From a virus, in the IMG/VR virus record IMGVR_UViG_3300042731_004976, positions 64,001 to 128,000 of that record: DNA of 64,000 bases. One strand, 5' to 3'. Both the position numbers and the translations under genes were made by a program. A model generated the notes under the pieces. That model did no database searches. It was not told the DNA's origin and saw only the letters and a program-made list of their open reading frames with translations. Below are positions 21,305 to 63,266 of the stretch, piece by piece. Position 1 is the stretch's first letter. Each line of letters begins with the position of its first letter.

Positions 21305-22492
21305 CTAGAGTCCGAGCGCCTCCATGGCTTTCTCCGCCTGGCTGTAGCGAGCCTTCAACTCGGGGGGAGGTAGATCGTGTGGGTGCTCTTTGCACCAGGC
21401 GTCGTACTCGTCTCGAACGGTTCTGACCTTCTCCCACTGCTGCGCTTCTGGGATGAGCGCGTCGTGAAACTTTCGCAGCGTCCCGATTCGAGGAAAGGAG
21501 CCCTTGCCTCGAAAGAACCGGTCGTTGATTTGGTCCCATTGTCTTACCATATAGTGTAGGGCATATTCAACGACGGGGCCAGAATAGAGCTGGATCATCT
21601 CTTTGAGCTGCTTCCGCTCCTTCGGCTCCCAGCGGGCGAAGTCGAACTCCGGCCACCGCGCCTTCAGATCTTCGCGCCACTGGACTTGAAGGTGATCCAG
21701 GAACTTCTTGGTGCTGATGGTCTCCGTCTGTCCTTGGAGATTCTCCTTGAGACGCGCCTTCTTCTCCTTCTTCGCTACCTGCTCGCTTCGATGCTTCAGG
21801 AGACGCTGCTTGCTCGCCGCCGTGATTGCGTCGAGGCGAGACTGGTCCAAGGACGAGGGGGACAATGTGGGAGTTTTCCCCACATCCGGCGGAATTTCTT
21901 TCTTCGATTTCTCGCCGGCCGAGGGTGAAGTGTTTTGGAGGGGAAGACTCTCGGCGAGCGAAGGCTCGCCAAGTGATTCTCCTTTCAATGACTCTTTTCC
22001 ATGACTCTCTTTTTGTCCGGAAATATCCTTCCAGGGGGTGTGGAAGGATAGTTCCGGGGGGTGCGGAACGATACTTCCGGGGGTGACAGATCCGTCACCA
22101 CCCTGTGAGGACTTCTCCTGGGGCGGCGGGGGCTCCTGAACGGCCTCCTGGTCAGTCTCCGTCGGCGCCTGTGCCTCGGTCTCCCCTCCGTGCATCCAGG
22201 GGTGGTCTAGGAAGTAGACGAGGTCTGGAAGGCTCTTGTTGGTCTGCTTGACCTGCTCGATGAGACCCCACTTCGCGAGGTCTGTGAGGTAGTTCCGTAC
22301 CTGTCGGTCTGAGACTCCTAGGGCGCTCGCTATCGTCTTCTGCCGCGGGTAGCACTTGCCGTTGTTTCCGGCGTAGCGGGTGAGGCGCGCGTAGCACATC
22401 TTGGCTCCGGGGCTCAGCTCGGGTCGGGGTTCGAGCCACTCAGGCAGCATGGATCCGTGGAACTTCTTCCAGGGGTTGATTCGCTCGCTCAC
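21305..22492 (-). CDS. replication initiator with N-terminal winged HTH
   Basis: LSPGAK.CY..L...CYP....IA..LGVS.RQV..YL..L...GLI; sits directly upstream of the loader and helicase (lambda O/P-like layout). Confidence 0.8.
   Translation of the reverse strand: MSERINPWKKFHGSMLPEWLEPRPELSPGAKMCYARLTRYAGNNGKCYPRQKTIASALGVSDRQVRNYLTDLAKWGLIEQVKQTNKSLPDLVYFLDHPWMHGGETEAQAPTETDQEAVQEPPPPQEKSSQGGDGSVTPGSIVPHPPELSFHTPWKDISGQKESHGKESLKGESLGEPSLAESLPLQNTSPSAGEKSKKEIPPDVGKTPTLSPSSLDQSRLDAITAASKQRLLKHRSEQVAKKEKKARLKENLQGQTETISTKKFLDHLQVQWREDLKARWPEFDFARWEPKERKQLKEMIQLYSGPVVEYALHYMVRQWDQINDRFFRGKGSFPRIGTLRKFHDALIPEAQQWEKVRTVRDEYDAWCKEHPHDLPPPELKARYSQAEKAMEALGL
22019..22098. repeat. candidate origin iterons inside the initiator gene
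   Basis: Three GGAA-N6-TTCC-RGGGG(G)TG units at a 23-bp period (22019, 22042, 22065), then GTGAC-N6-GTCAC, next to a pyrimidine/AT-richer tract at 21971-22016. Confidence 0.6.
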
Positions 22493-26830: not shown

Positions 26831-26840
26831 GAACGCCCCA

Positions 26841-26860
26841 GTGCGTCCATATGGACGCAC
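26841..26860. repeat. 20-bp perfect palindrome, copy 1
   Basis: GTGCGTCCATATGGACGCAC, intergenic. Confidence 0.85.
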
Positions 26861-26869
26861 GGCTTCGGT

Positions 26870-35836: not shown

Positions 35837-36649
35837 ATGAACCTGACCGAAGAGTTCCGCGAGCTTGCTGGCCTCAAGTCCCGTCTTCCGAGTCTTCAGG
35901 AGGCGCGTAGGCTTCGTGAGGCCGATGAGATCAAAGTCAACCGTTTGGAGCGGTTTGTCGATGCGACAGAGAGGGAGCTTCGGCAGTTGAAGCACTCGCT
36001 CGATCTCTACAAGAAGAACCCGCAGAAGTACGCGCCCCAGCTCAAGAACTTCAAATCTTCGGTGAACACCATCATGGGCGTAGGCCGCATGGTCATGCGA
36101 ATGATGGGGGAGGCGTCCCCAGTCTCTGAGGGGGTCAGCTCGATGTCCGTGGGGACCTGGTACAAGCAGGTGTTCCGCGGGGGTGAGGAGATCTACTTCA
36201 AGGCGAAAGAGCAGCAGAAGAACGGTGGCTGGAAGGGAATGATCGTTCAGTACGCAGACAGCGGACATCCCAAGAAGGCCAAGCAGACATCCGTTCGCTC
36301 GAACGAGTTCCGTCTCTGGACGGAGGTGCCCGCTTCCAACGTCCCCAAGGACGTGAGAGCCCGTTTGGGCGAGAGCCTGGGGGAAGCCATCGTCCAACCC
36401 TCGAAGCTGTTCAAAGCCATGCAGGACGCCGACAAAGCCCTGGTCGATGCCCGCGTCAAGGTGCGCAAGGTTCACGAGATGTTGACCGACGTCTACAACG
36501 ATGCCTCGGGAACGTCGTGGACAGATAACTATCAGGACTCAGACGTCAAGCACACGCGCGACGAGTTGTACGACTTGGATCGTTCATTCGGCTCCGCGAT
36601 GGACAGCATCGCTCGTACGAGCAAGGATCTCAAGAAGAAGACCGTCTGA
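35837..36649 (+). CDS. probable internal head protein or polyprotein
   Basis: MNLTEEFRELAGL N-terminus; domains separated by x-x-E-rich linkers (LQE, LRE, VSE, LGESLGE). Confidence 0.5.
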   Translation: MNLTEEFRELAGLKSRLPSLQEARRLREADEIKVNRLERFVDATERELRQLKHSLDLYKKNPQKYAPQLKNFKSSVNTIMGVGRMVMRMMGEASPVSEGVSSMSVGTWYKQVFRGGEEIYFKAKEQQKNGGWKGMIVQYADSGHPKKAKQTSVRSNEFRLWTEVPASNVPKDVRARLGESLGEAIVQPSKLFKAMQDADKALVDARVKVRKVHEMLTDVYNDASGTSWTDNYQDSDVKHTRDELYDLDRSFGSAMDSIARTSKDLKKKTV

Positions 36650-36653
36650 GCCC

Positions 36654-37463
36654 ATGCTCATCGTCGAAGGTTTGGAGCTACGCCCTGAGGCGTTCCGACG
36701 CCAGGTGCGGTCGCTTCGGTATCTTCCAGAGGACCGTGAGCTGAACCTTGCCCAGTGGGGGTTGGAAGGGCTCATGATGGGGAAGCCGACGAAGCTCTAT
36801 CACGGCACCACGCGCCTGTTCCGGAAGTTCGATCTGAAGCAGAGCCGAGACGAGCTGGTCAAGGACTACTACGGTAGCGGGATCTTCCTGACTCCTTCAC
36901 GTCGTGTGGCTGCCGACTACGCCTACGCGAATCGGAACAAGGGGTTCCCGAAGGACGTCATCGACAAGCTAAAGCGCAAGAACAAGAACGCGGGGGCGTT
37001 CCTGCAAGCGCTGTACGACGAGGGGGATAGAGCTTGGGACACCTATGGGGAGAAGCACGGGATCGTGACCGCTGTTGAATGGGATCAGCATCTTGGGGGG
37101 TTGGATGCGAACACTATCGGAGACGTCGCGGGGTACATTCTAGGAAGCAAGGTGAAACCCCTATCTAGCGGCGGCGGTGACTTCAGCCTGTTCAATTACA
37201 CAGCTATAGGACTGCCGGATTACGTTTACGACAACCTGGAAGAGTTGGGCATCGACTCGAAGCCATATCGTCCCAAGGTCTACACAGTGATGGCCACGGT
37301 GCGTAATCCGCTGGTCACGCAAAGCCAGGCCAAGGCACGAGGGGCGCGGGCTTCAGGCTACGATAGCGTTATCTACTACGGTCCTTTCTTGGTGCAGGAC
37401 GTTCCTGAGGTAGCCGTGTTCGATCCCAAGAAGGTTCGGATCACCAAAATCGACGTGCTGTGA
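36654..37463 (+). CDS. ART-PolyVal-type ADP-ribosyltransferase with shared leader
   Basis: LYHGT...FD...GSGIFLT....A..YA, VY.V...NPL, GYDSVI, EVAVFDP; leader MLIVEGLELRPEAF..VRSLRYLPE. Confidence 0.75.
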   Translation: MLIVEGLELRPEAFRRQVRSLRYLPEDRELNLAQWGLEGLMMGKPTKLYHGTTRLFRKFDLKQSRDELVKDYYGSGIFLTPSRRVAADYAYANRNKGFPKDVIDKLKRKNKNAGAFLQALYDEGDRAWDTYGEKHGIVTAVEWDQHLGGLDANTIGDVAGYILGSKVKPLSSGGGDFSLFNYTAIGLPDYVYDNLEELGIDSKPYRPKVYTVMATVRNPLVTQSQAKARGARASGYDSVIYYGPFLVQDVPEVAVFDPKKVRITKIDVL

Positions 37464-37464
37464 C

Positions 37465-37484
37465 ATGCGTCCATATGGACGCAT
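37465..37484. repeat. 20-bp perfect palindrome, copy 2
   Basis: ATGCGTCCATATGGACGCAT, immediately after the ART stop codon. Confidence 0.85.
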
Positions 37485-37562
37485 CGTCCCCTTCCTACCT
37501 TGTAGTACGGTGTAGGCGTTCGGTTGAAAGTCGTGTGATCTCCGGGGCCTGGAGAAAAGATG

Positions 37563-37610
37563 AAAAAGATCCGATCTCCTCTTGACCATGCCGTTTCTAT
37601 GCGATAGCTT
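37563..37610 (+). promoter_or_regulatory. promoter subclass with AAAAAGATCCG box and CTATGCGATA extended -10
   Basis: AAAAAGATCCG...TTGACC-17-TAGCTT-6nt-ATG (37617). Confidence 0.75.
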
Positions 37611-37787: not shown

Positions 37788-38601
37788 ACGCATTCGCATA
37801 CGACCCAGAGGAAGACGCCCGCCAGGACGCAGGTGACGAGGACAACTTTTTCGGTTTCGATGAGGACATCCTGTTCTTCGGCGCTCCCGAGGAAGTCGAC
37901 GACACCTCAGATCTGGAGCACTTCCGAACGCTCGCGCGTCGGGGTTGATCATGGCCTGGCACTGGTACTGCAACGGAGAGGACTCTCGGCGAGGCTCGTT
38001 TCACCCGGACTACGAAGGTCGGTGTGGAGCGCATAGTCGGAAAGGATTCTCCTCCGAGGAGGGTGCTCGGGAGGCTGGTCGACGACACGCGCACAAGTGT
38101 GACTTCGGAGCGCGTGTACGTGTCTTCGAGTCTCGCAAGTCGCCAGCCAAGCTGTGGGGTTGAGATGAGCCTGAGCTTCGTTCACGGCGGCTACATGGCA
38201 GGGCTTCGCGGGGAGGACCCGGATCCCCGCCTGGAGGGCTTCCCCGACTACGACACTGCGTGGCTCAAGGGCTGCGAGGATCGAGAGTCTGGAGCCTGCA
38301 AGCCCGAGGACTTCGAGGAGGTACCGGAGTGGTTGAAGAGGGGTGTAGAGATCACGGTGCCCAAGGGCACGCCTCTGACGTCGACCCACCCTCAGAGGAG
38401 CGGGGTGTTCAAGGCGGGGCGCACGTACAGGGTGAAGATCCACGACGTGTACCACGTGACCCCGGCGTACCGAGGCTACAACGGATTCGAGCGGCCGAAG
38501 CCTGCGCAGGTTGTGTGGGCGGGCGCCGGAGGATACTGGACACACGCATACATCACGGACCTACCGTGGGACTGTGCGAAGCAAGAGGAAGCAACAGGCT
38601 A

Positions 38602-38794
38602 GAGTATCGAGAGAGTGGGCGGAGTGCATTCGCCAGGTCTGCCCGAGAGCCGAGTACGCTCGGAGGTTAGGCTGTCGACGCTTCGGAGGTACGCCTCCGG
38701 GGATTGGGTCGGGCGGGAGTCGGGTAGTGCAACCGTCGTGAGCTGATCACTCGCGGATTCCGTTAGGCGCCGTCCACTCACTCTCTCGGCACTT
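38602..38794 (+). ncRNA. candidate multibranched structured ncRNA
   Basis: Intergenic; closing stem GAGTGGGCGG/CCGTCCACTC plus CGAGA/TCTCG; nested stems; two UACG-loop hairpins. Confidence 0.55.
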
Positions 38795-38821
38795 CAGCCG
38801 ATACAACGGACGAAGGTAAGG

Positions 38822-39379
38822 ATGTTCACGGACGAGGAACTGTTGGCAAAGGTTGCACCCATGGTGCTGGCTGGGTTGAAGGAGAAGGGGCACAAGGTCT
38901 CCTTTTTGGAACCAGCGAAGCAACATAGGACTTCTAGGATTGTCGTGGACGGCGTTCGTGTACCATTCGACGTACAGCGTCAGGCTGGTTCTTGGGGGCG
39001 TTTCACTGGAAAGAAGACTGTGCGCATCGATTGGCTCTGGATGAGCAACGACCACCTGAACGGGGCGGTGCAGATGAAGGCGCGGTCCTTTCAGCAGTCC
39101 AAGAACCGCCCGGACACTGAGGGCTTCGACATCCCAAAGATCGTCGAACACATCGAGAAGTGGGCGTCTGAGTGGACGCGCCTGAAGGAGATCTGCGATC
39201 AAAAGGAAGACCACCAAGAACAGTGGACCCGCGTCGTCAAGCTGTTGCGGCAGTCCTTTCCTGAGGCGAGCGATCGGCTCAAGTTGAAGGCGACCACCAA
39301 GGGCATCGAGGTACGAGGGCTCTTCGGACACAAGGACGTCGAGGCCATGCTCAAGGTGCTCGGGAAAGGTGCGCCGTGA
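38822..39379 (+). CDS. hypothetical protein, paralog of the downstream gene
   Basis: KARSF....TEGFDIPKIVEHIE..ASEW shared with 39376..40296. Confidence 0.7.
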   Translation: MFTDEELLAKVAPMVLAGLKEKGHKVSFLEPAKQHRTSRIVVDGVRVPFDVQRQAGSWGRFTGKKTVRIDWLWMSNDHLNGAVQMKARSFQQSKNRPDTEGFDIPKIVEHIEKWASEWTRLKEICDQKEDHQEQWTRVVKLLRQSFPEASDRLKLKATTKGIEVRGLFGHKDVEAMLKVLGKGAP

Positions 39380-40296
39380 ACGCTCCGCAGAAGATGGCGA
39401 AGCCCTGGCACGCTCGTGAGATGCTGATCGAGGTGTTGAAGGATCGTGGCCACGAGGCGGACGTCTACAGCTTCGATGCCCTCCTCTTCAACGGCATGAA
39501 GGTCCCCGTGCAGGCTGTCACTAGTCGCCTTGGGGTGAACATCAACGAGTTCGTAGCCTTCAATGTCGTCCGCTTGGAAAAGCGGTTCATCTCCTTCGCG
39601 TCGGATGCTGACATTGCGAAGGCTGCCGATCACGTGGAGCTGTGGGCCTCGATGCGCTTGGAGTACGAGACCCTGAGAGCGGGTGGCAAACACAAAGACT
39701 ACACGAGGGAAGAGCGCGCCGTTGTGGAGGCGGAGACGGAACTCATCTTCGAGCGGACGCTCAAGCGTCTTGTGGAGGCTTTGGCAGCCAAAGGGATCAA
39801 GGCGCAGGTGAAGGATTCGCGGCTCATTGTTCGTGGGGTCTACATCGACGTAGTCCTCAACGATCGCTACGTTCTAGGGATCTGGTCCCCGGCTCGTAGG
39901 GGTAAGCGTAACCTACACTTCAAGGCCGCGTCAGGTGTGAAGGCTCGTAACTTCTTCGAGGCGGCGTCTCGCAAGGAGACCGACGGTTTCGACATCGAGA
40001 AGATCGCTGAGTACGTGGACGCTCGTTCGAAGGAATGGATCAGGTTGTACGGTCCGGAGATGGTCAGGCGTCAGCGCCGGGCCAAGTGGGGCGTGGTTGC
40101 CAAGACGCTTCGGGAGAAGCACCCTGAGGCAGCGAAGCGCGCTACGACCTTCGAGGGATGCTCCAAGGGGATCCGTGCGCACTTCGTGCTCGACCGCAAG
40201 GAGGCCGATGCGGTGCTCGTCCTGTTGGAGACCTTCGCCAAACAGAAGGAGAAGGCGGCCAAGAAGGCGAAGCCCTCACCCGCTCCTGTAGCTTGA
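39376..40296 (+). CDS. hypothetical protein with duplicated domain
   Basis: DIAKAADHVELWAS and KARNFF...TDGFDIEKIAEYV..RSKEW. Confidence 0.7.
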   Translation: MNAPQKMAKPWHAREMLIEVLKDRGHEADVYSFDALLFNGMKVPVQAVTSRLGVNINEFVAFNVVRLEKRFISFASDADIAKAADHVELWASMRLEYETLRAGGKHKDYTREERAVVEAETELIFERTLKRLVEALAAKGIKAQVKDSRLIVRGVYIDVVLNDRYVLGIWSPARRGKRNLHFKAASGVKARNFFEAASRKETDGFDIEKIAEYVDARSKEWIRLYGPEMVRRQRRAKWGVVAKTLREKHPEAAKRATTFEGCSKGIRAHFVLDRKEADAVLVLLETFAKQKEKAAKKAKPSPAPVA

Positions 40297-40329: not shown

Positions 40330-40860
40330 ATGAATGAACTACTAGAGAAAGCAAGAGCCTTCGCGGAGAAGGCGCATGGTGACCAGAAGTACGGTAAGCA
40401 GCCGTACATGGTTCACGTAGACGCGGTGGCAGGTGTTCTGCTTCAGCGTTTTCAGGGACCGGAGGCGGATAAGGAGGAGATCCAGGAACTGATCGCGGCT
40501 GCTTATCTGCACGACACCCTGGAGGACACGGACACCACGAGGGAAGACCTCGTGCGTGAGTTCGGCGACGCCGTCGCCATGCTCGTGGACGCTGTGACTG
40601 ATGGTAAGGGGAAGAATCGAAAGGAGCGCAAGCAGCGTCCCTACAAGTTGATCCCAATGGTCCGTTGGTCCCTCTTCCTCAAGCTGGCGGACCGCGTAGC
40701 GAATGTGGAGGCCGCGAAGGCCGAGGGTCGTGAAGACCTCGTGGCCATGTACCGCAAAGAGCAGCCGGAGTTCCAGTTTCGGCTGTTGGACTCAGCCAAT
40801 TCGATTGGAGAGCAGGCGCTGTTCAGTCGCTTGAATCGCCTTCTGGAGACGGAGGAGTGA
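40330..40860 (+). CDS. HD-domain small alarmone hydrolase (RelA/SpoT/Mesh1-like)
   Basis: FAEKAH.DQ....PY..H, AAYLHDTLEDT, FG..VA.LV..VT, LKLADR..N; own promoter TTGACT at 40293. Confidence 0.88.
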   Translation: MNELLEKARAFAEKAHGDQKYGKQPYMVHVDAVAGVLLQRFQGPEADKEEIQELIAAAYLHDTLEDTDTTREDLVREFGDAVAMLVDAVTDGKGKNRKERKQRPYKLIPMVRWSLFLKLADRVANVEAAKAEGREDLVAMYRKEQPEFQFRLLDSANSIGEQALFSRLNRLLETEE

Positions 40861-44016: not shown

Positions 44017-44068
44017 CGGATCTTTTTTCTCTCCTCTTCTTGACTATCCCTAATCTATGCGATAGGGT
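44017..44068 (+). promoter_or_regulatory. promoter subclass (inverted AAAAAGATCCG box plus CTATGCGATA)
   Basis: CGGATCTTTTT...TTGACT-17-TAGGGT-6nt-ATG (44075). Confidence 0.75.
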
Positions 44069-60568: not shown

Positions 60569-62212
60569 ACGTATGGGTATTCGCAGCGTCGAGGACATGA
60601 AGAACGACAACCGTCCTGAGGACAGCAAGTTCGACAAGGATCGAGTGTGATGAGTGCTGAGAACCTACTAGCTCGCTTGGTCTTCGACTCAGAAGAGATG
60701 TGCGGCCGTCCGTTGCCGGACATCCAGGAGAAGGACTCTCGGGTGACCTTTACCTTTCGCATCGAGGGTTCGGACATGGTCTGGTCTGGCTTCGCGTGGC
60801 TAGGACCTGGGTATGCTCCTGGTCCTACGCTCGCGAAGATTCACCCCCTAGCGAAGGAGGCTCGTGAGCTTCTGGTGCCGGGTACGCGCATCTCGTTCTG
60901 TTACGCCGGACCGTACTTCACGGGAGCGGGAGAGATCCTCCCGATCCACATCGCGACAGGGATTATCGAGCACGGGCGTCCGGTGTACTGGTGTGATGCG
61001 AAGCCTATCGCAGGAGAGTTGGACAAGGAGGAGTACTCGTTGACGATCCTAAACGGAACCGACAAACCGGGTAATTCGACATGCTCCGAGTGCTGGGTGC
61101 GCTTCGAGGAAGCGATGAAGGCGCATTCTTCTGGAGGTCACCCGTGAGACGCGAGCCACCTCCCGATCCTATCGAGCTAGAACCTCGTACGACAGGGGAC
61201 GCGGTTTGGGGTGTCGTACTTGTCGTGTTTGCTGTTCTCGGCGTGCTTGCTCTCATAGGCATGGTTGCGGTGGCCGCCTTTCTTCCGACTCCGTGATGCT
61301 TACCGGAACGCCTTGCCCCGAGTGCCTGAGCGGAGATCTCGTCTTCGTCGTGGTGTGGGGCGACACGGCTTGCCGGCGTTGCGGTCAGAAGGTCTCAGAA
61401 CGTTTGACCCGCAAGGAGATCCGGGCGTGCATGAAGGAACGTCGTAGGTTGGCTGCGGAGGAAGCTGCGAAGGAAGAGGACTCTTGACCATCGCTTTTCT
61501 TTACGGTAGCATTCTGTTCCTATGTATCGGTACGGGTTACGTTCCGGTTTTGACTCTGACGGTTCGGGAGCTGCACACGTGAAGAAAGAGGTGGGGATCG
61601 AAGAGAGTGCCGAAATCCAGATCGATGGCCCCCTCTTCGTGGCGTTTCTCTTTATCTTGATCTTTTCTTTCGGGGCGCTGCTGTTTTCCGTGTTCACCCT
61701 GTGGCAGATAGGGAAGGTCGAGAAGATGCTGGAAGAGCATCACGTACAGGGACGCTGTCCGTGATCCGTTGGCGTCCAGACGTACCTTACTGCGAGTGCG
61801 TCCGTCGACACTTTGAAAGCTGCGGCGCGTACCGCAGAAGGGATATACCATGAATGACGACCTGCAAGATACTGGGGAGATCAACACTCTGGACGAGGCG
61901 TATTTTCACCTGAGCAACTCGGGCATCAACGTGTGCCTTGTCGAGGAACGCATGGAACGGACGCGACAAGACCTGGTTCGCGTTCGAGAGCACACCTTCT
62001 ACGTCGACTTTCAGATGCACGCCTTCAACACCAAGCTGTCGCTGCGTCTTCCCCTGGAGACCTCGGCCTTTGCTCACTGGCTTGGGTGGGCTTTGGTACG
62101 TGCTTCGAAGAAGATGCGTGTCGTCGAGCAGGAGGAGCAGATGAAGTACACCTCGATGGAGGAGCCTCAAGTGAAGTACTCCTCGGGGGCTGTCGAGTCC
62201 GGTTGAACTTCC

Positions 62213-62232
62213 ATGCGTCCATGTGGACGCAT
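62213..62232. repeat. 20-bp palindrome, copy 3 (one mismatch)
   Basis: ATGCGTCCATGTGGACGCAT, 7 nt after a stop codon. Confidence 0.8.
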
Positions 62233-62670
62233 CAGGATTCCCGTGGCGTGGCCGACCATGAGGTCGGTTGGGGACCCACTTCGGATCGCGTGTGGGACAC
62301 GCCACCTTTCAGGAGATGCGCATGAGCAAGTGGAAGAACGTGGTTTGGCGCCATCCGGACGGGGACCTGGTTCGCTTGATTCCCCAGACTGAGCAGGCAG
62401 CTGAGGACCTCGAACGCTGTGGACCGAAGATCTTCGAAGGTCTGAAGAAGCTGGGCTACGAGCCGGTGTCGGTGGAGCTGTCGAAAACTCCCGACGGGGT
62501 TCCAATTCACTAGCAGGGACTCCCAGTGATCACTGTGGGGGAGCTGATGGTCGACCCACAAGCAACCCGGCGCTTGGCTCAGTGGCTTCGGTTGAAGACC
62601 GAAGGCATGAGCGACCGTCAGGTAGCAAAGCTAGTACGCTGGAGAATCACTCGTCGGCAGATGCGCTGGT

Positions 62671-63208: not shown

Positions 63209-63266
63209 AAAAAGATCCGTTTTCTAGATCCAACCCCTTGACCATCCCGATTCTATGCGATACCTT
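63209..63266 (+). promoter_or_regulatory. promoter subclass (AAAAAGATCCG plus CTATGCGATA)
   Basis: AAAAAGATCCG...TTGACC-17-TACCTT. Confidence 0.72.

What the first reader, a model, noticed from the sequence alone, without database searches (positions are those of the whole stretch)
38602..38794. Unannotated ~190-nt multibranched structured RNA
Seen in sequence: an intergenic gap between coupled genes folds almost completely. The outer stem is 38613-22 GAGTGGGCGG with 38770-79 CCGTCCACTC, extended by CGAGA/TCTCG. Nested stems are CGCC/GGCG and CTGCCCGA/TCGGGCGG, the latter enclosing two hairpins with identical UACG loops (CCGAG-TACG-CTCGG; CTTCGGAGG-TACG-CCTCCGGGG). A further stem GGAGTC/GATTCC encloses CGTGAG..CTCGCG. 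Mismatches are G-U on the + strand (A-C on the - strand), which points to a + strand RNA. It does not resemble a tRNA or a terminator. Inference: a novel phage ncRNA (decoy, antitoxin mimic or regulatory element) or a single-strand origin.
Basis: seen in the sequence. Interest (0 to 1): 0.75.

Follow-up and report, generated by a model that had tools for sequence, protein, structure and literature searches.

The report
New folded RNA in phage operon
The 219-base gap between two early genes of an uncultured T4-like phage holds a real, conserved folded RNA of about 190 bases that matches no catalogued RNA family; it recurs in front of the same gene family in two related phage lineages, and its job is still unknown.

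Summary
Window 38602-38794 (+) folds into a long closing stem topped by a four-way junction. On its own the fold is only modestly better than chance (z -2.5; 218th of 5594 genome windows after GC correction).

The comparative evidence is strong. Homologous elements lie in two other uncultured phage lineages (L002, L025), always just upstream of a homologue of the downstream 185-aa gene.
- 97-98% of aligned pairs stay paired, against 41-49% when partners are slid.
- 16-18 pairs change on both sides.
- 14 of 58 pairs here are G-U, which marks a + strand RNA.
- A structure-blind alignment gives alifold z -8.2.

Its CTGCCCGA/TCGGGCGG and GGAGTC/GATTCC stems are not.

There is no Rfam, tRNA, T4 rnaC/rnaD or Ro/Y-RNA match, no second copy, and no promoter or terminator of its own. 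The ribosome site stays open.

My best guess, which is inferred, is a co-transcribed leader and processing module: a roughly 20-bp double-stranded stem suited to RNase III, plus a factor-binding junction. A released, possibly dimerising small RNA remains open. Only three lineages exist and there are no informative transcript data. This scan has found comparable uncatalogued phage RNAs on other DNA.

The parts
37579..37608 (+). Nearest copy of the phage's repeated promoter-like motif (TTGACC ... TATGCGATAGC). It is the likely start of the transcript that carries the element.
   Evidence: Four-copy direct-repeat family D1/D2. No sigma-70-like site lies closer to the element. Promoter function is inferred.
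38165..38602 (+). Upstream gene (145 aa counted from Met 38165). Its TAG stop at 38600-02 abuts the first pair of the RNA.
   Evidence: 91% identical to the L002 upstream protein, which starts at the equivalent Met. Third-codon identity is 84%. The only metatranscriptome contigs found lie here.
38602..38612 (+). 5' strand of the basal closing stem (P0 38602-05, then U38607 and CGAGA 38608-12). It pairs with 38784-38794.
   Evidence: 100% paired in 4 sequences, with A-U to G-C at the top pair. P0 shows U-A to C-G between the window and L002.
38613..38622 (+). P1b 5' strand, GAGUGGGCGG. It pairs with 38770-38779.
   Evidence: 10 of 10 pairs are kept in all sequences and 3 pairs change on both sides. 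The L025 version is GAACGAACGG/CCGUUCGUUC.
38623..38630 (+). Conserved-size 8-nt 5' bulge (AGUGCAUU here, pattern A-N-Y-G-Y-A-W-Y) between P1b and P2.
   Evidence: Alignment A7. Same length in three lineages, with A1, G4 and A6 invariant. Its role is unknown.
38631..38634 (+). P2 5' strand, CGCC. It pairs with GGCG 38766-69.
   Evidence: CGCC/GGCG becomes CGCU/AGCG in L002, a compensatory change.
38636..38673 (+). P3 hairpin: GGUCUG/UAGGCU base with the inner UACG-capped hairpin 38650-63.
   Evidence: The base helix is kept, with 2 double changes and 91% of cells paired. The distal part varies in length: it is 11 nt shorter in L002.
38676..38711 (+). P4 hairpin: CGAC/GUCG base with the UACG-capped hairpin 38681-38702.
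   Evidence: All four base pairs change on both sides across lineages. In L025 the distal part is replaced by a roughly 60-nt multi-hairpin insert. A salt-marsh variant has A38691G, turning the loop UACG into UGCG.
38712..38764 (+). P5 domain: GGCGGG/UCCGUU, enclosing the weak P5a (38723-34) and P5b.
   Evidence: P5 is nearly invariant, so it shows conservation without covariation. The window has 3 G-U pairs here.
38736..38756 (+). P5b hairpin: 7-bp stem with the 7-nt loop C-UGAUCA (38743-49).
   Evidence: 4 of 7 pairs change on both sides. The loop is C-UGAUCA in the window and L002 and C-UAGCUA in L025, so both carry a 6-nt palindrome.
38765..38794 (+). 3' strands: J5/2 A, P2 GGCG, P1b CCGUCCACUC, 4-nt bulge ACUC (38780-83), then UCUCGG and P0.
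   Evidence: This is the most conserved block. GCGCCGU is invariant although the DNA just downstream is unalignable.
38822..39379 (+). Downstream gene (185 aa, P0001 family). It is the only neighbour shared by all RNA-bearing loci.
   Evidence: Homologues follow the RNA in L002 (53% identity) and L025 (35%). No Pfam, PHROG or PADLOC hit. The AF2 model has pLDDT 93 but no clear fold match. Its SD is predicted unpaired.

Best explanation
Shown: this is a genuine, evolutionarily conserved structured RNA on the + strand, of about 190 nt here and 180-230 nt in relatives. It belongs to a previously uncatalogued and rare family.

Its fold has these parts:
- a roughly 20-bp closing duplex (P0/P1a/P1b) interrupted by a fixed 4-nt 3' bulge;
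- an 8-nt 5' bulge;
- a 4-bp P2;
- a compact four-way junction (P2/P3/P4/P5) with conserved junction nucleotides;
- variable, UNCG-capped distal hairpins.

It has no promoter or terminator of its own. It sits inside an early polycistronic unit, starts at the stop codon of the upstream gene, and ends 28 nt before the start codon of a 185-aa gene, about 15 nt before its ribosome-binding site. Homologues of that gene follow the RNA in every lineage that has it.

Inferred mechanism: the element acts in cis as a leader and processing module of the operon mRNA. The long duplex is the kind of substrate that host RNase III cuts. Cleavage would uncouple the downstream cistron from the upstream message and leave stable structure at the new ends. 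The ribosome-binding site remains single-stranded. The conserved junction and bulges would be the docking site for an unidentified factor, possibly the downstream protein or its paralogue, that tunes this step. The same cut would release the junction domain as a small RNA, so a trans role is not excluded.
For: Reality and strand
- CM R1, built from the window and L002, finds the L025 lineage at 55 bits, E 1e-14.
- 97-98% of cells are paired, against 41-49% with slid partners. 16-18 pairs carry double changes, and 0 of 500 shuffles reach that.
- A structure-blind MAFFT alignment gives alifold z -8.2.
- Single-sequence z scores are -2.5, -3.4 and -5.9 in the three lineages.
- There are 14, 10 and 7 G-U pairs, which would be mismatches on the - strand.
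- No conserved ORF exists, and the indels of 11, 4, 3 and 1 nt break any frame.

Cis context
- No promoter or terminator flanks the element.
- The upstream gene differs in L025, while the downstream gene family is the same.
- The SD is predicted unpaired in all three lineages.

Duplex
- P0+P1a+P1b give 20 bp, 24 bp with P2. They are maintained by covariation and not by sequence.

Selection
- The 3' half is about 91% identical between the window and L002.
- The adjacent downstream DNA is unalignable and the downstream protein is only 53% identical.
Against: - Only three lineages (four distinct sequences) exist, so no R-scape-grade statistics are possible.
- The three loci share partial synteny. 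The link to the downstream gene may therefore be inheritance and not function.
- Seven other members of the downstream protein family carry no such RNA.
- An elaborate conserved junction is more than an RNase III site needs.
- No RNase III gene is in the phage, the host is unknown, and no cleavage or transcript ends could be observed.
- The one metatranscriptome holder covers only the upstream gene.
- In L025 a second structured element lies between the RNA and the gene.
Confidence: 0.4

Rival explanations
1. A trans-acting stable small RNA. It would be excised from the early transcript, as T4 rnaC/rnaD are from the tRNA cluster. It would act by binding a host or phage protein, perhaps as a homodimer joined through the palindromic P5b loop (a kissing-loop contact).
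For: - The long terminal duplex joining the 5' and 3' ends, the UNCG caps and the compact junction are typical of stable RNAs.
- The P5b loop is C-UGAUCA in two lineages and C-UAGCUA in the third. Both hexamers are self-complementary, and two internal positions changed in a coordinated way.
- The RNA is not needed by most homologues of the downstream gene.
Against: - There is no promoter or terminator and no evidence of accumulation.
- The palindrome argument rests on two loop variants and was noticed after the fact.
- There is no homology to T4 rnaC/rnaD, no Ro60 gene and no tRNA cluster.
Confidence: 0.25
2. A riboswitch or protein-binding translational or transcriptional regulator of the downstream 185-aa gene. 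This would make it an orphan cis-regulatory leader like manA, wcaG or PhotoRC-II of T4-like cyanophages.
For: - It always lies immediately 5' of the same gene family on the same strand.
- Conserved nucleotides are concentrated at the junction.
- Precedent exists for gene-associated structured leaders in T4-like phages (PMC2864571; PMC10690425).
Against: - No expression platform is present: there is no terminator and the SD is unpaired in the folded state in all three lineages.
- A 20-bp closing stem is too stable to switch.
- In L025 another 130-nt structure separates the RNA from the gene.
- Most family members lack the leader.
Confidence: 0.12
3. A new self-cleaving ribozyme that processes the polycistronic mRNA.
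For: - A multi-helix junction with invariant junction and bulge nucleotides sits between phage genes. From my own knowledge, several self-cleaving classes sit in such intergenic phage contexts.
Against: - No match to any Rfam ribozyme, even at E up to 10.
- Nothing in the data points to a cleavage site.
Confidence: 0.05
4. A DNA-level element, such as a single-strand origin, a recombination or MITE-like cassette with terminal inverted repeats, or simply GC-driven chance folding.
For: - The arms 38608-22 and 38770-88 form an inverted repeat.
- The - strand also folds with z -2.3 and alifold z -6.6.
- The GC-adjusted genome rank is only 218 of 5594.
Against: - There is a single copy in the genome.
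- It sits at the corresponding position, directly upstream of the same gene, in all three lineages.
- 17-24% of pairs are G-U and would be A-C in the other strand.
- Compensatory changes occur in five helices.
- + strand energies are 11-18 kcal/mol better than - strand energies.
Confidence: 0.04

Closest known systems
Phage T4 stable RNAs rnaC (species 1) and rnaD (species 2)
   Same: - They are structured RNAs of 119-139 nt and unknown function in a T4-type phage.
- They are made by processing of a longer transcript and not from their own transcription unit (annotation in AF158101; the processing is from my own knowledge).
   Different: - There is no sequence or structure homology: R1 scores 6 bits or less on the T4 region.
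- The T4 RNAs lie in the tRNA cluster, and rnaC ends in a tRNA-like T arm.
- This phage record has no tRNA genes and no T-arm motif.
- The element here sits between protein genes.
RNase III processing stems (phage T7 early-mRNA sites; stems flanking 16S/23S rRNA in precursors)
   Same: - A duplex of about 20 bp or more is formed by sequences inside a polycistronic transcript, between cistrons.
- In the rRNA case the stem encloses a large structured RNA that is released (own knowledge).
- The duplex here is kept by covariation.
   Different: - T7 sites are simple hairpins of about 60 nt.
- Here the stem closes a conserved four-way junction, and the bulges are of fixed size.
- Cleavage is untested.
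Orphan gene-associated leader motifs of T4-like phages (manA, wcaG, PhotoRC-II; candidate RNAs upstream of gp20/gp32)
   Same: They are conserved structured RNAs in the 5' region of particular genes of T4-like phages. They are known only from comparative genomics, and their ligand or function is unknown (PMC2864571; PMC10690425).
   Different: - There is no Rfam match to any of them.
- The associated gene is different and uncharacterised.
- The closing stem is much longer and there is no expression platform.
- Only three lineages are known.
Bacterial Y RNAs (YrlA) bound by Ro60/Rsr
   Same: The 5' and 3' ends pair into a long stem with conserved bulges, topped by a multi-helix module. They are also found in some phages (own knowledge).
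   Different: - There is no TROVE/Ro60 gene in the genome.
- There is no Y-RNA or tRNA-like hit.
- There is no T-loop motif.

Membership tests
Any Rfam 15 family (riboswitches, ribozymes, sRNAs, Y RNA, 6S, group I/II introns) | Covariance-model score at or above the family's gathering threshold | tested here: not met
   There are 0 hits in the whole window at gathering thresholds. At E up to 10 on 38450-38950 the only hit is an irrelevant 15.8-bit Prion_pknot match inside the downstream gene. Nothing relevant was found on the L025 copy.
tRNA / tmRNA | Cloverleaf or tmRNA recognised by ARAGORN; T-arm GGUUCRAWUCC | tested here: not met
   ARAGORN finds 0 genes in the window, in the whole 168-kb record and in the relatives. 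There is no T-arm motif in the genome.
T4 rnaC / rnaD stable RNAs | Homology in sequence and structure to T4 rnaC or rnaD | tested here: not met
   cmsearch with filters off over T4 68.5-73.5 kb gives a best score of 6.2 bits, and not on rnaC or rnaD.
T4 rnaC / rnaD stable RNAs | Location within the phage tRNA gene cluster | tested here: not met
   There are no tRNA genes in this record. The element lies between protein genes.
T4 rnaC / rnaD stable RNAs | Accumulates as a discrete stable RNA during infection | not testable with these tools
   The only RNA run holding the locus has two 151-nt contigs, both in the upstream gene.
Ro60-associated Y RNA (YrlA) | Ro60/TROVE protein encoded with it | tested here: not met
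   PF05731 gives no match in the record, while the positive controls do hit. The record is about 80% complete.
RNase III processing site | About two turns (20 bp or more) of mostly regular dsRNA formed inside a longer transcript | tested here: met
   P0 (4 bp), P1a (6 bp) and P1b (10 bp), with P2 (4 bp) stacked on top, are 100% paired in 4 sequences. No promoter or terminator flanks the element.
RNase III processing site | Cleavage by RNase III in vitro or in vivo | not testable with these tools
   No raw RNA reads cover the element.
Riboswitch / cis-regulatory leader | Consistent position in the 5' region of one gene family | tested here: met
   The RNA lies upstream, on the same strand, of a P0001-family gene in all three RNA-bearing lineages. 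Seven other loci of the family lack it.
Riboswitch / cis-regulatory leader | Expression platform (terminator or RBS-sequestering helix that competes with the aptamer) | tested here: not met
   There is no terminator-like site after the element. The SD is predicted unpaired in all three lineages.
Type III toxin-antitoxin RNA (ToxI-like) | Tandem direct repeats of the antitoxin unit upstream of a ToxN/AbiQ-type toxin | tested here: not met
   There is no repeat family at the locus. The downstream protein has no Pfam or PADLOC hit.
MITE / PeSL-type mobile intergenic cassette | Several copies per genome at different places | tested here: not met
   There is one copy by BLAST and by CM in the 168-kb record. 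It lies directly upstream of the same gene family in all three lineages.

The most novel reading that the evidence does not exclude
The RNA is a functional trans-acting molecule of a new class. One possibility is a small RNA-only homodimer or oligomer held together by the covarying palindromic P5b loop, a miniature relative in kind of the self-assembling ROOL/GOLLD/raiA RNAs. Another is a new ribozyme or ligand-sensing fold built on its conserved four-way junction. Either would be used by a T4-like phage during host takeover.
Probability: 0.12. Interest if true: 0.75.

Novelty: new variant of a known kind. Interest (0 to 1): 0.45.

Why it matters
T4-type phages are the best-studied large phages, yet even the function of T4's own rnaC and rnaD is still unknown. 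Large screens suggest thousands of uncharacterised structured RNAs in viruses (PMC10690425).

This element is a clean, medium-sized example. It has five covariation-supported helices, conserved bulges and a compact four-way junction. It is small enough for direct biochemistry: RNase III mapping, SHAPE, dimerisation tests and binding to the neighbouring protein.

If it proves to be a processing or stability module, it shows how an uncultured T4-like lineage sets expression of one early gene within an operon. If it acts in trans or self-associates, it is a new phage RNA class. Its rarity (three lineages) limits its general impact.

Tried and rejected
- Rfam at gathering and at E up to 10: nothing.
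- ARAGORN on the window, the genome and the relatives: nothing.
- BLAST of the locus against INPHARED phages: no match.
- Close-relative scans of IMG/VR with either flanking protein: none found.
- DNA-pattern scans:
  - IMG/VR: searches gave 0 hits. One search gave 5 hits, all rejected by the CM.
  - JGI metagenomes: protein patterns gave nothing. A DNA pattern gave 10 hits, all chance by CM.
  - GTDB genomes: 9 hits, all chance.
- HD-domain neighbour used as bait in IMG/VR: 5 distant loci, none with the RNA.
- Distant homologues of the upstream protein (P0005 loci): no RNA.
- Seven further loci of the downstream protein family: no RNA.
- Sequencing runs: three wetland DNA runs and one salt-marsh DNA run hold the locus. 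The single metatranscriptome has only two 151-nt contigs, both in the upstream gene, so nothing can be said about expression, ends or abundance of the element.
- Function of the downstream protein:
  - No Pfam, PHROG, PADLOC or PDB-sequence hit.
  - Foldseek gave nothing at E 0.001 or better.
  - VIA-align's best Z was 7.3, to generic alpha/beta folds.
  - ESM Atlas returned only unnamed clusters.
- Small-ORF reading of the gap: rejected, because translations are unrelated between lineages and indels break the frames.
- Intramolecular pseudoknot partners for the P5b loop or the bulges, sought by eye: none conserved.
- Phage-encoded RNase III and Ro60: absent.

Full report
**Setting.** The window is bases 64001-128000 of a 167,992-base IMG/VR virus record. 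Earlier notes of this scan describe it as an uncultured T4-like phage (I did not test this). GC content is about 58-60%.

The finding lies in a 219-base gap. The upstream + strand gene ends with TAG at 38600-02. The next + strand gene starts at 38822. Neighbouring genes overlap or abut, so the gap is unusual for this region.

The upstream ORF is listed from 38024. The homologue in a relative starts at the Met equivalent to 38165, which is probably the true start.

The single-sequence evidence is modest:
- The + strand folds to -90.5 kcal/mol with z -2.49; 3 of 200 shuffles fold as well.
- The - strand folds to -72.6 kcal/mol with z -2.31.
- In a 193-nt sliding scan of the whole genome, the element ranks 33rd of 5594 by raw energy. 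It ranks only 218th after correcting for GC and G content.
- The stronger outliers are simple long hairpins of another kind.

On thermodynamics alone the finding would be weak.

**Relatives.**
- No phage in INPHARED matches the locus, and no IMG/VR contig encodes a close relative of either flanking protein.
- The 185-aa downstream protein has one close homologue (53% identity) on ENA wetland contigs L002-L004.
- Those contigs carry a 199-nt gap at the same place, and the gap aligns with the element.
- A Logan contig, L010, is identical to the window.
- A profile search of 1.8 billion representative proteins gave 30 members of the downstream protein family.
- Of ten family loci fetched, one further lineage (L025-L028, protein P0010, 35% identical) has the RNA directly upstream. 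CM R1 scores it at 52-55 bits, E about 1e-14.
- The other seven loci have no comparable gap or hit.
- Pattern scans of IMG/VR, JGI metagenomes and GTDB genomes gave only chance matches, all rejected by the CM.

The family is therefore rare. It has three lineages and four distinct sequences. In addition, a salt-marsh variant differs by one loop base: A38691G, which turns UACG into UGCG, still a UNCG loop.

**Conserved structure.**
- On the CM alignment A7, 97.2% of cells are standard pairs. With partners slid by 1-3 columns the figure is 42-49%.
- 18 of 58 pairs change on both sides, and no shuffle out of 500 reaches the observed values.
- This alignment is fitted to the model, so I repeated the test on a structure-blind MAFFT alignment of the three lineages. 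RNAalifold energy was -68.6, against -36.1 +/- 4.0 for column shuffles. That gives z -8.2 on the + strand and -6.6 on the - strand.
- The relatives also fold better than their own shuffles: z -3.4 for L002 and z -5.9 for L025.

- P1b is GAGUGGGCGG/CCGUCCACUC in the window.
- It is GAGUGGACGG/CCGUCCAUUC in L002.
- It is GAACGAACGG/CCGUUCGUUC in L025.

With that register, P1a, P1b and P2 are 100% paired in all sequences.

The conserved fold, from the outside in:
- P0: 38602-05 with 38791-94.
- P1a: 38607-12 with 38784-89.
- A fixed 4-nt 3' bulge: ACUC or AUUC.
- P1b: 38613-22 with 38770-79.
- A fixed 8-nt 5' bulge.
- P2: CGCC/GGCG, which becomes CGCU/AGCG in L002.
- A four-way junction whose other three arms, besides P2, are:
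  - P3 (38636-73);
  - P4 (38676-38711, with all four base pairs covarying);
  - P5 (38712-64), which encloses a weak P5a and the hairpin P5b (38736-56, with four of seven pairs covarying).

The distal parts of P3 and P4 vary freely in length. In L025, P4 carries a roughly 60-nt multi-hairpin insert. This is the usual behaviour of peripheral elements in functional RNAs.

I replace them with P3/P4/P5.

**Strand and coding.**
- 14 of 58 pairs in the window are G-U, as are 10 in L002 and 7-8 in L025/L026. On the other strand these would be A-C mismatches.
- + strand energies are 11-18 kcal/mol better than - strand energies.
- The strand is that of the flanking genes.
- No ORF is conserved across the gap, and indels of 11, 4, 3 and 1 nt separate the window from L002.

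**Selection.**
- The upstream gene is 91% identical in protein and 84% identical at synonymous third positions between the window and L002.
- The downstream protein is only 53% identical, and the DNA just 3' of the element is unalignable.
- The 3' half of the element lies next to this diverged DNA, yet it is about 91% identical and contains the invariant GCGCCGU.

**What it is not.**
- It matches no Rfam family and is not a tRNA or tmRNA.
- It is not homologous to T4 rnaC or rnaD.
- It is not accompanied by Ro60.
- It is neither repeated nor multi-copy.
- It is not followed by a terminator or preceded by a promoter.
- The nearest copy of the phage's repeated promoter-like motif is at 37579, three small genes upstream.
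- The Shine-Dalgarno sequence of the downstream gene is predicted single-stranded in all three lineages when the element is folded. There is therefore no obvious translational switch.

**Context.**
- In L025 the upstream neighbour is unrelated, while the downstream gene is of the same family. The one constant neighbour is thus the 185-aa gene.
- The L025 contig shares a few other genes with this part of the genome in the same order. The linkage may therefore be inherited synteny and not a functional unit.
- The 185-aa protein gives a confident model (pLDDT 93). It shows no convincing fold or family match.
- The C-terminal half of the next gene (306 aa) is a paralogue of it.
- An HD_4 (small-alarmone-hydrolase-like) gene follows, and an ART-PolyVal gene lies upstream. 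All this fits an early, host-takeover region.

**Mechanism.** Shown: a conserved + strand RNA fold, embedded in an operon, in front of one gene family. The rest is inferred.
- The closing duplex of about 20 bp (24 bp with P2) is maintained by covariation. It is the feature that dsRNA-specific RNase III recognises in T7 early mRNA and in rRNA precursors (established knowledge).
- I therefore rate a processing and stability module as most likely. Cleavage would uncouple the downstream cistron and leave structured ends while the ribosome site stays open.
- The conserved bulges and junction imply a specific ligand, most simply a protein.
- The same cleavage would free the junction domain, so a trans-acting stable RNA is the main rival.
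- One detail favours a self-association reading. The 7-nt P5b loop is C-UGAUCA in two lineages and C-UAGCUA in the third. Both hexamers are palindromes, and positions 2/5 and 3/4 changed together. This rests on two variants and was noticed after the fact.
- Riboswitch, ribozyme and DNA-element readings are less likely, for the reasons given under the rival explanations.

**Novelty and score.** The family is uncatalogued, and it is unlikely to be in the IMG/VR-based catalogue of candidate viral RNAs, because I found no relative in IMG/VR. That catalogue could not be searched by sequence.

The kind of thing, however, is familiar: a conserved structured RNA of unknown function in a phage operon. 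This scan has already reported several such families on other DNA. I rate it a real, well-defined but rare new RNA of moderate interest.

Noticed in passing
L025:2199-2325 (+), between the RNA homologue and the P0010 gene: A second stem-closed structured element (MFE -61.7 kcal/mol, z -3.2). Its 3' part reads like a tRNA T arm plus acceptor strand (UGGGUUCAAUUCCCA followed by GCCCCC). This is reminiscent of the 3' end of T4 rnaC (CCGGGUUCGAAUCCCGG). ARAGORN and Rfam do not call it, and the window has no counterpart.
   Followed up: partly
window 39376-40296 (+): The C-terminal half of the 306-aa protein (about 39769-40173) is a paralogue of the 185-aa downstream protein. It hits the L002 and L025 homologues at 26-30% identity, E 5e-11 and 2e-6, so the family is tandemly duplicated here.
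   Followed up: partly
window 37579-37608, 44037-44066, 61481-61510, 63235-63264: A repeated 30-44-nt promoter-like motif (CTTGACCAT...TCTATGCGATAGC), on the + strand ahead of gene blocks. Two further inverted copies lie near 1009-1056 and 2042-2086.
   Followed up: no
window 37464-37485, 62212-62233, 26840-26861: A repeated 22-nt perfect or near-perfect palindrome, CATGCGTCCATATGGACGCAT(C). At 37464 it lies immediately after the ART-PolyVal gene and just upstream of the promoter-like motif. It may be a terminator hairpin or an operator.
   Followed up: no
whole record G000 (168 kb): ARAGORN finds no tRNA or tmRNA gene anywhere in this T4-like phage record, which is estimated to be about 80% complete.
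   Followed up: partly
genome 41761-41953 (+), 149881-150070, 17641-17890 (+), 31681-31870 (+), 135241-135430 (+); window 21861-22113: These regions fold much more strongly than the element after GC correction (-3.5 to -5.7 sd). They contain long, near-perfect hairpins, for example a stem of about 24 bp at genome ~149.9 kb. They are of a different kind from the element studied.
   Followed up: partly
window 38024-38602 (+): The ORF finder's 192-aa reading of the upstream gene is probably 47 codons too long. The relative's protein begins at the Met equivalent to 38165.
   Followed up: partly
window 36501-37463 and 40330-40860 (+): An ART-PolyVal ADP-ribosyltransferase-like gene and an HD_4 (RelA/SpoT-type hydrolase-like) gene bracket the locus. 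The HD gene is 81% identical in L002.
   Followed up: no
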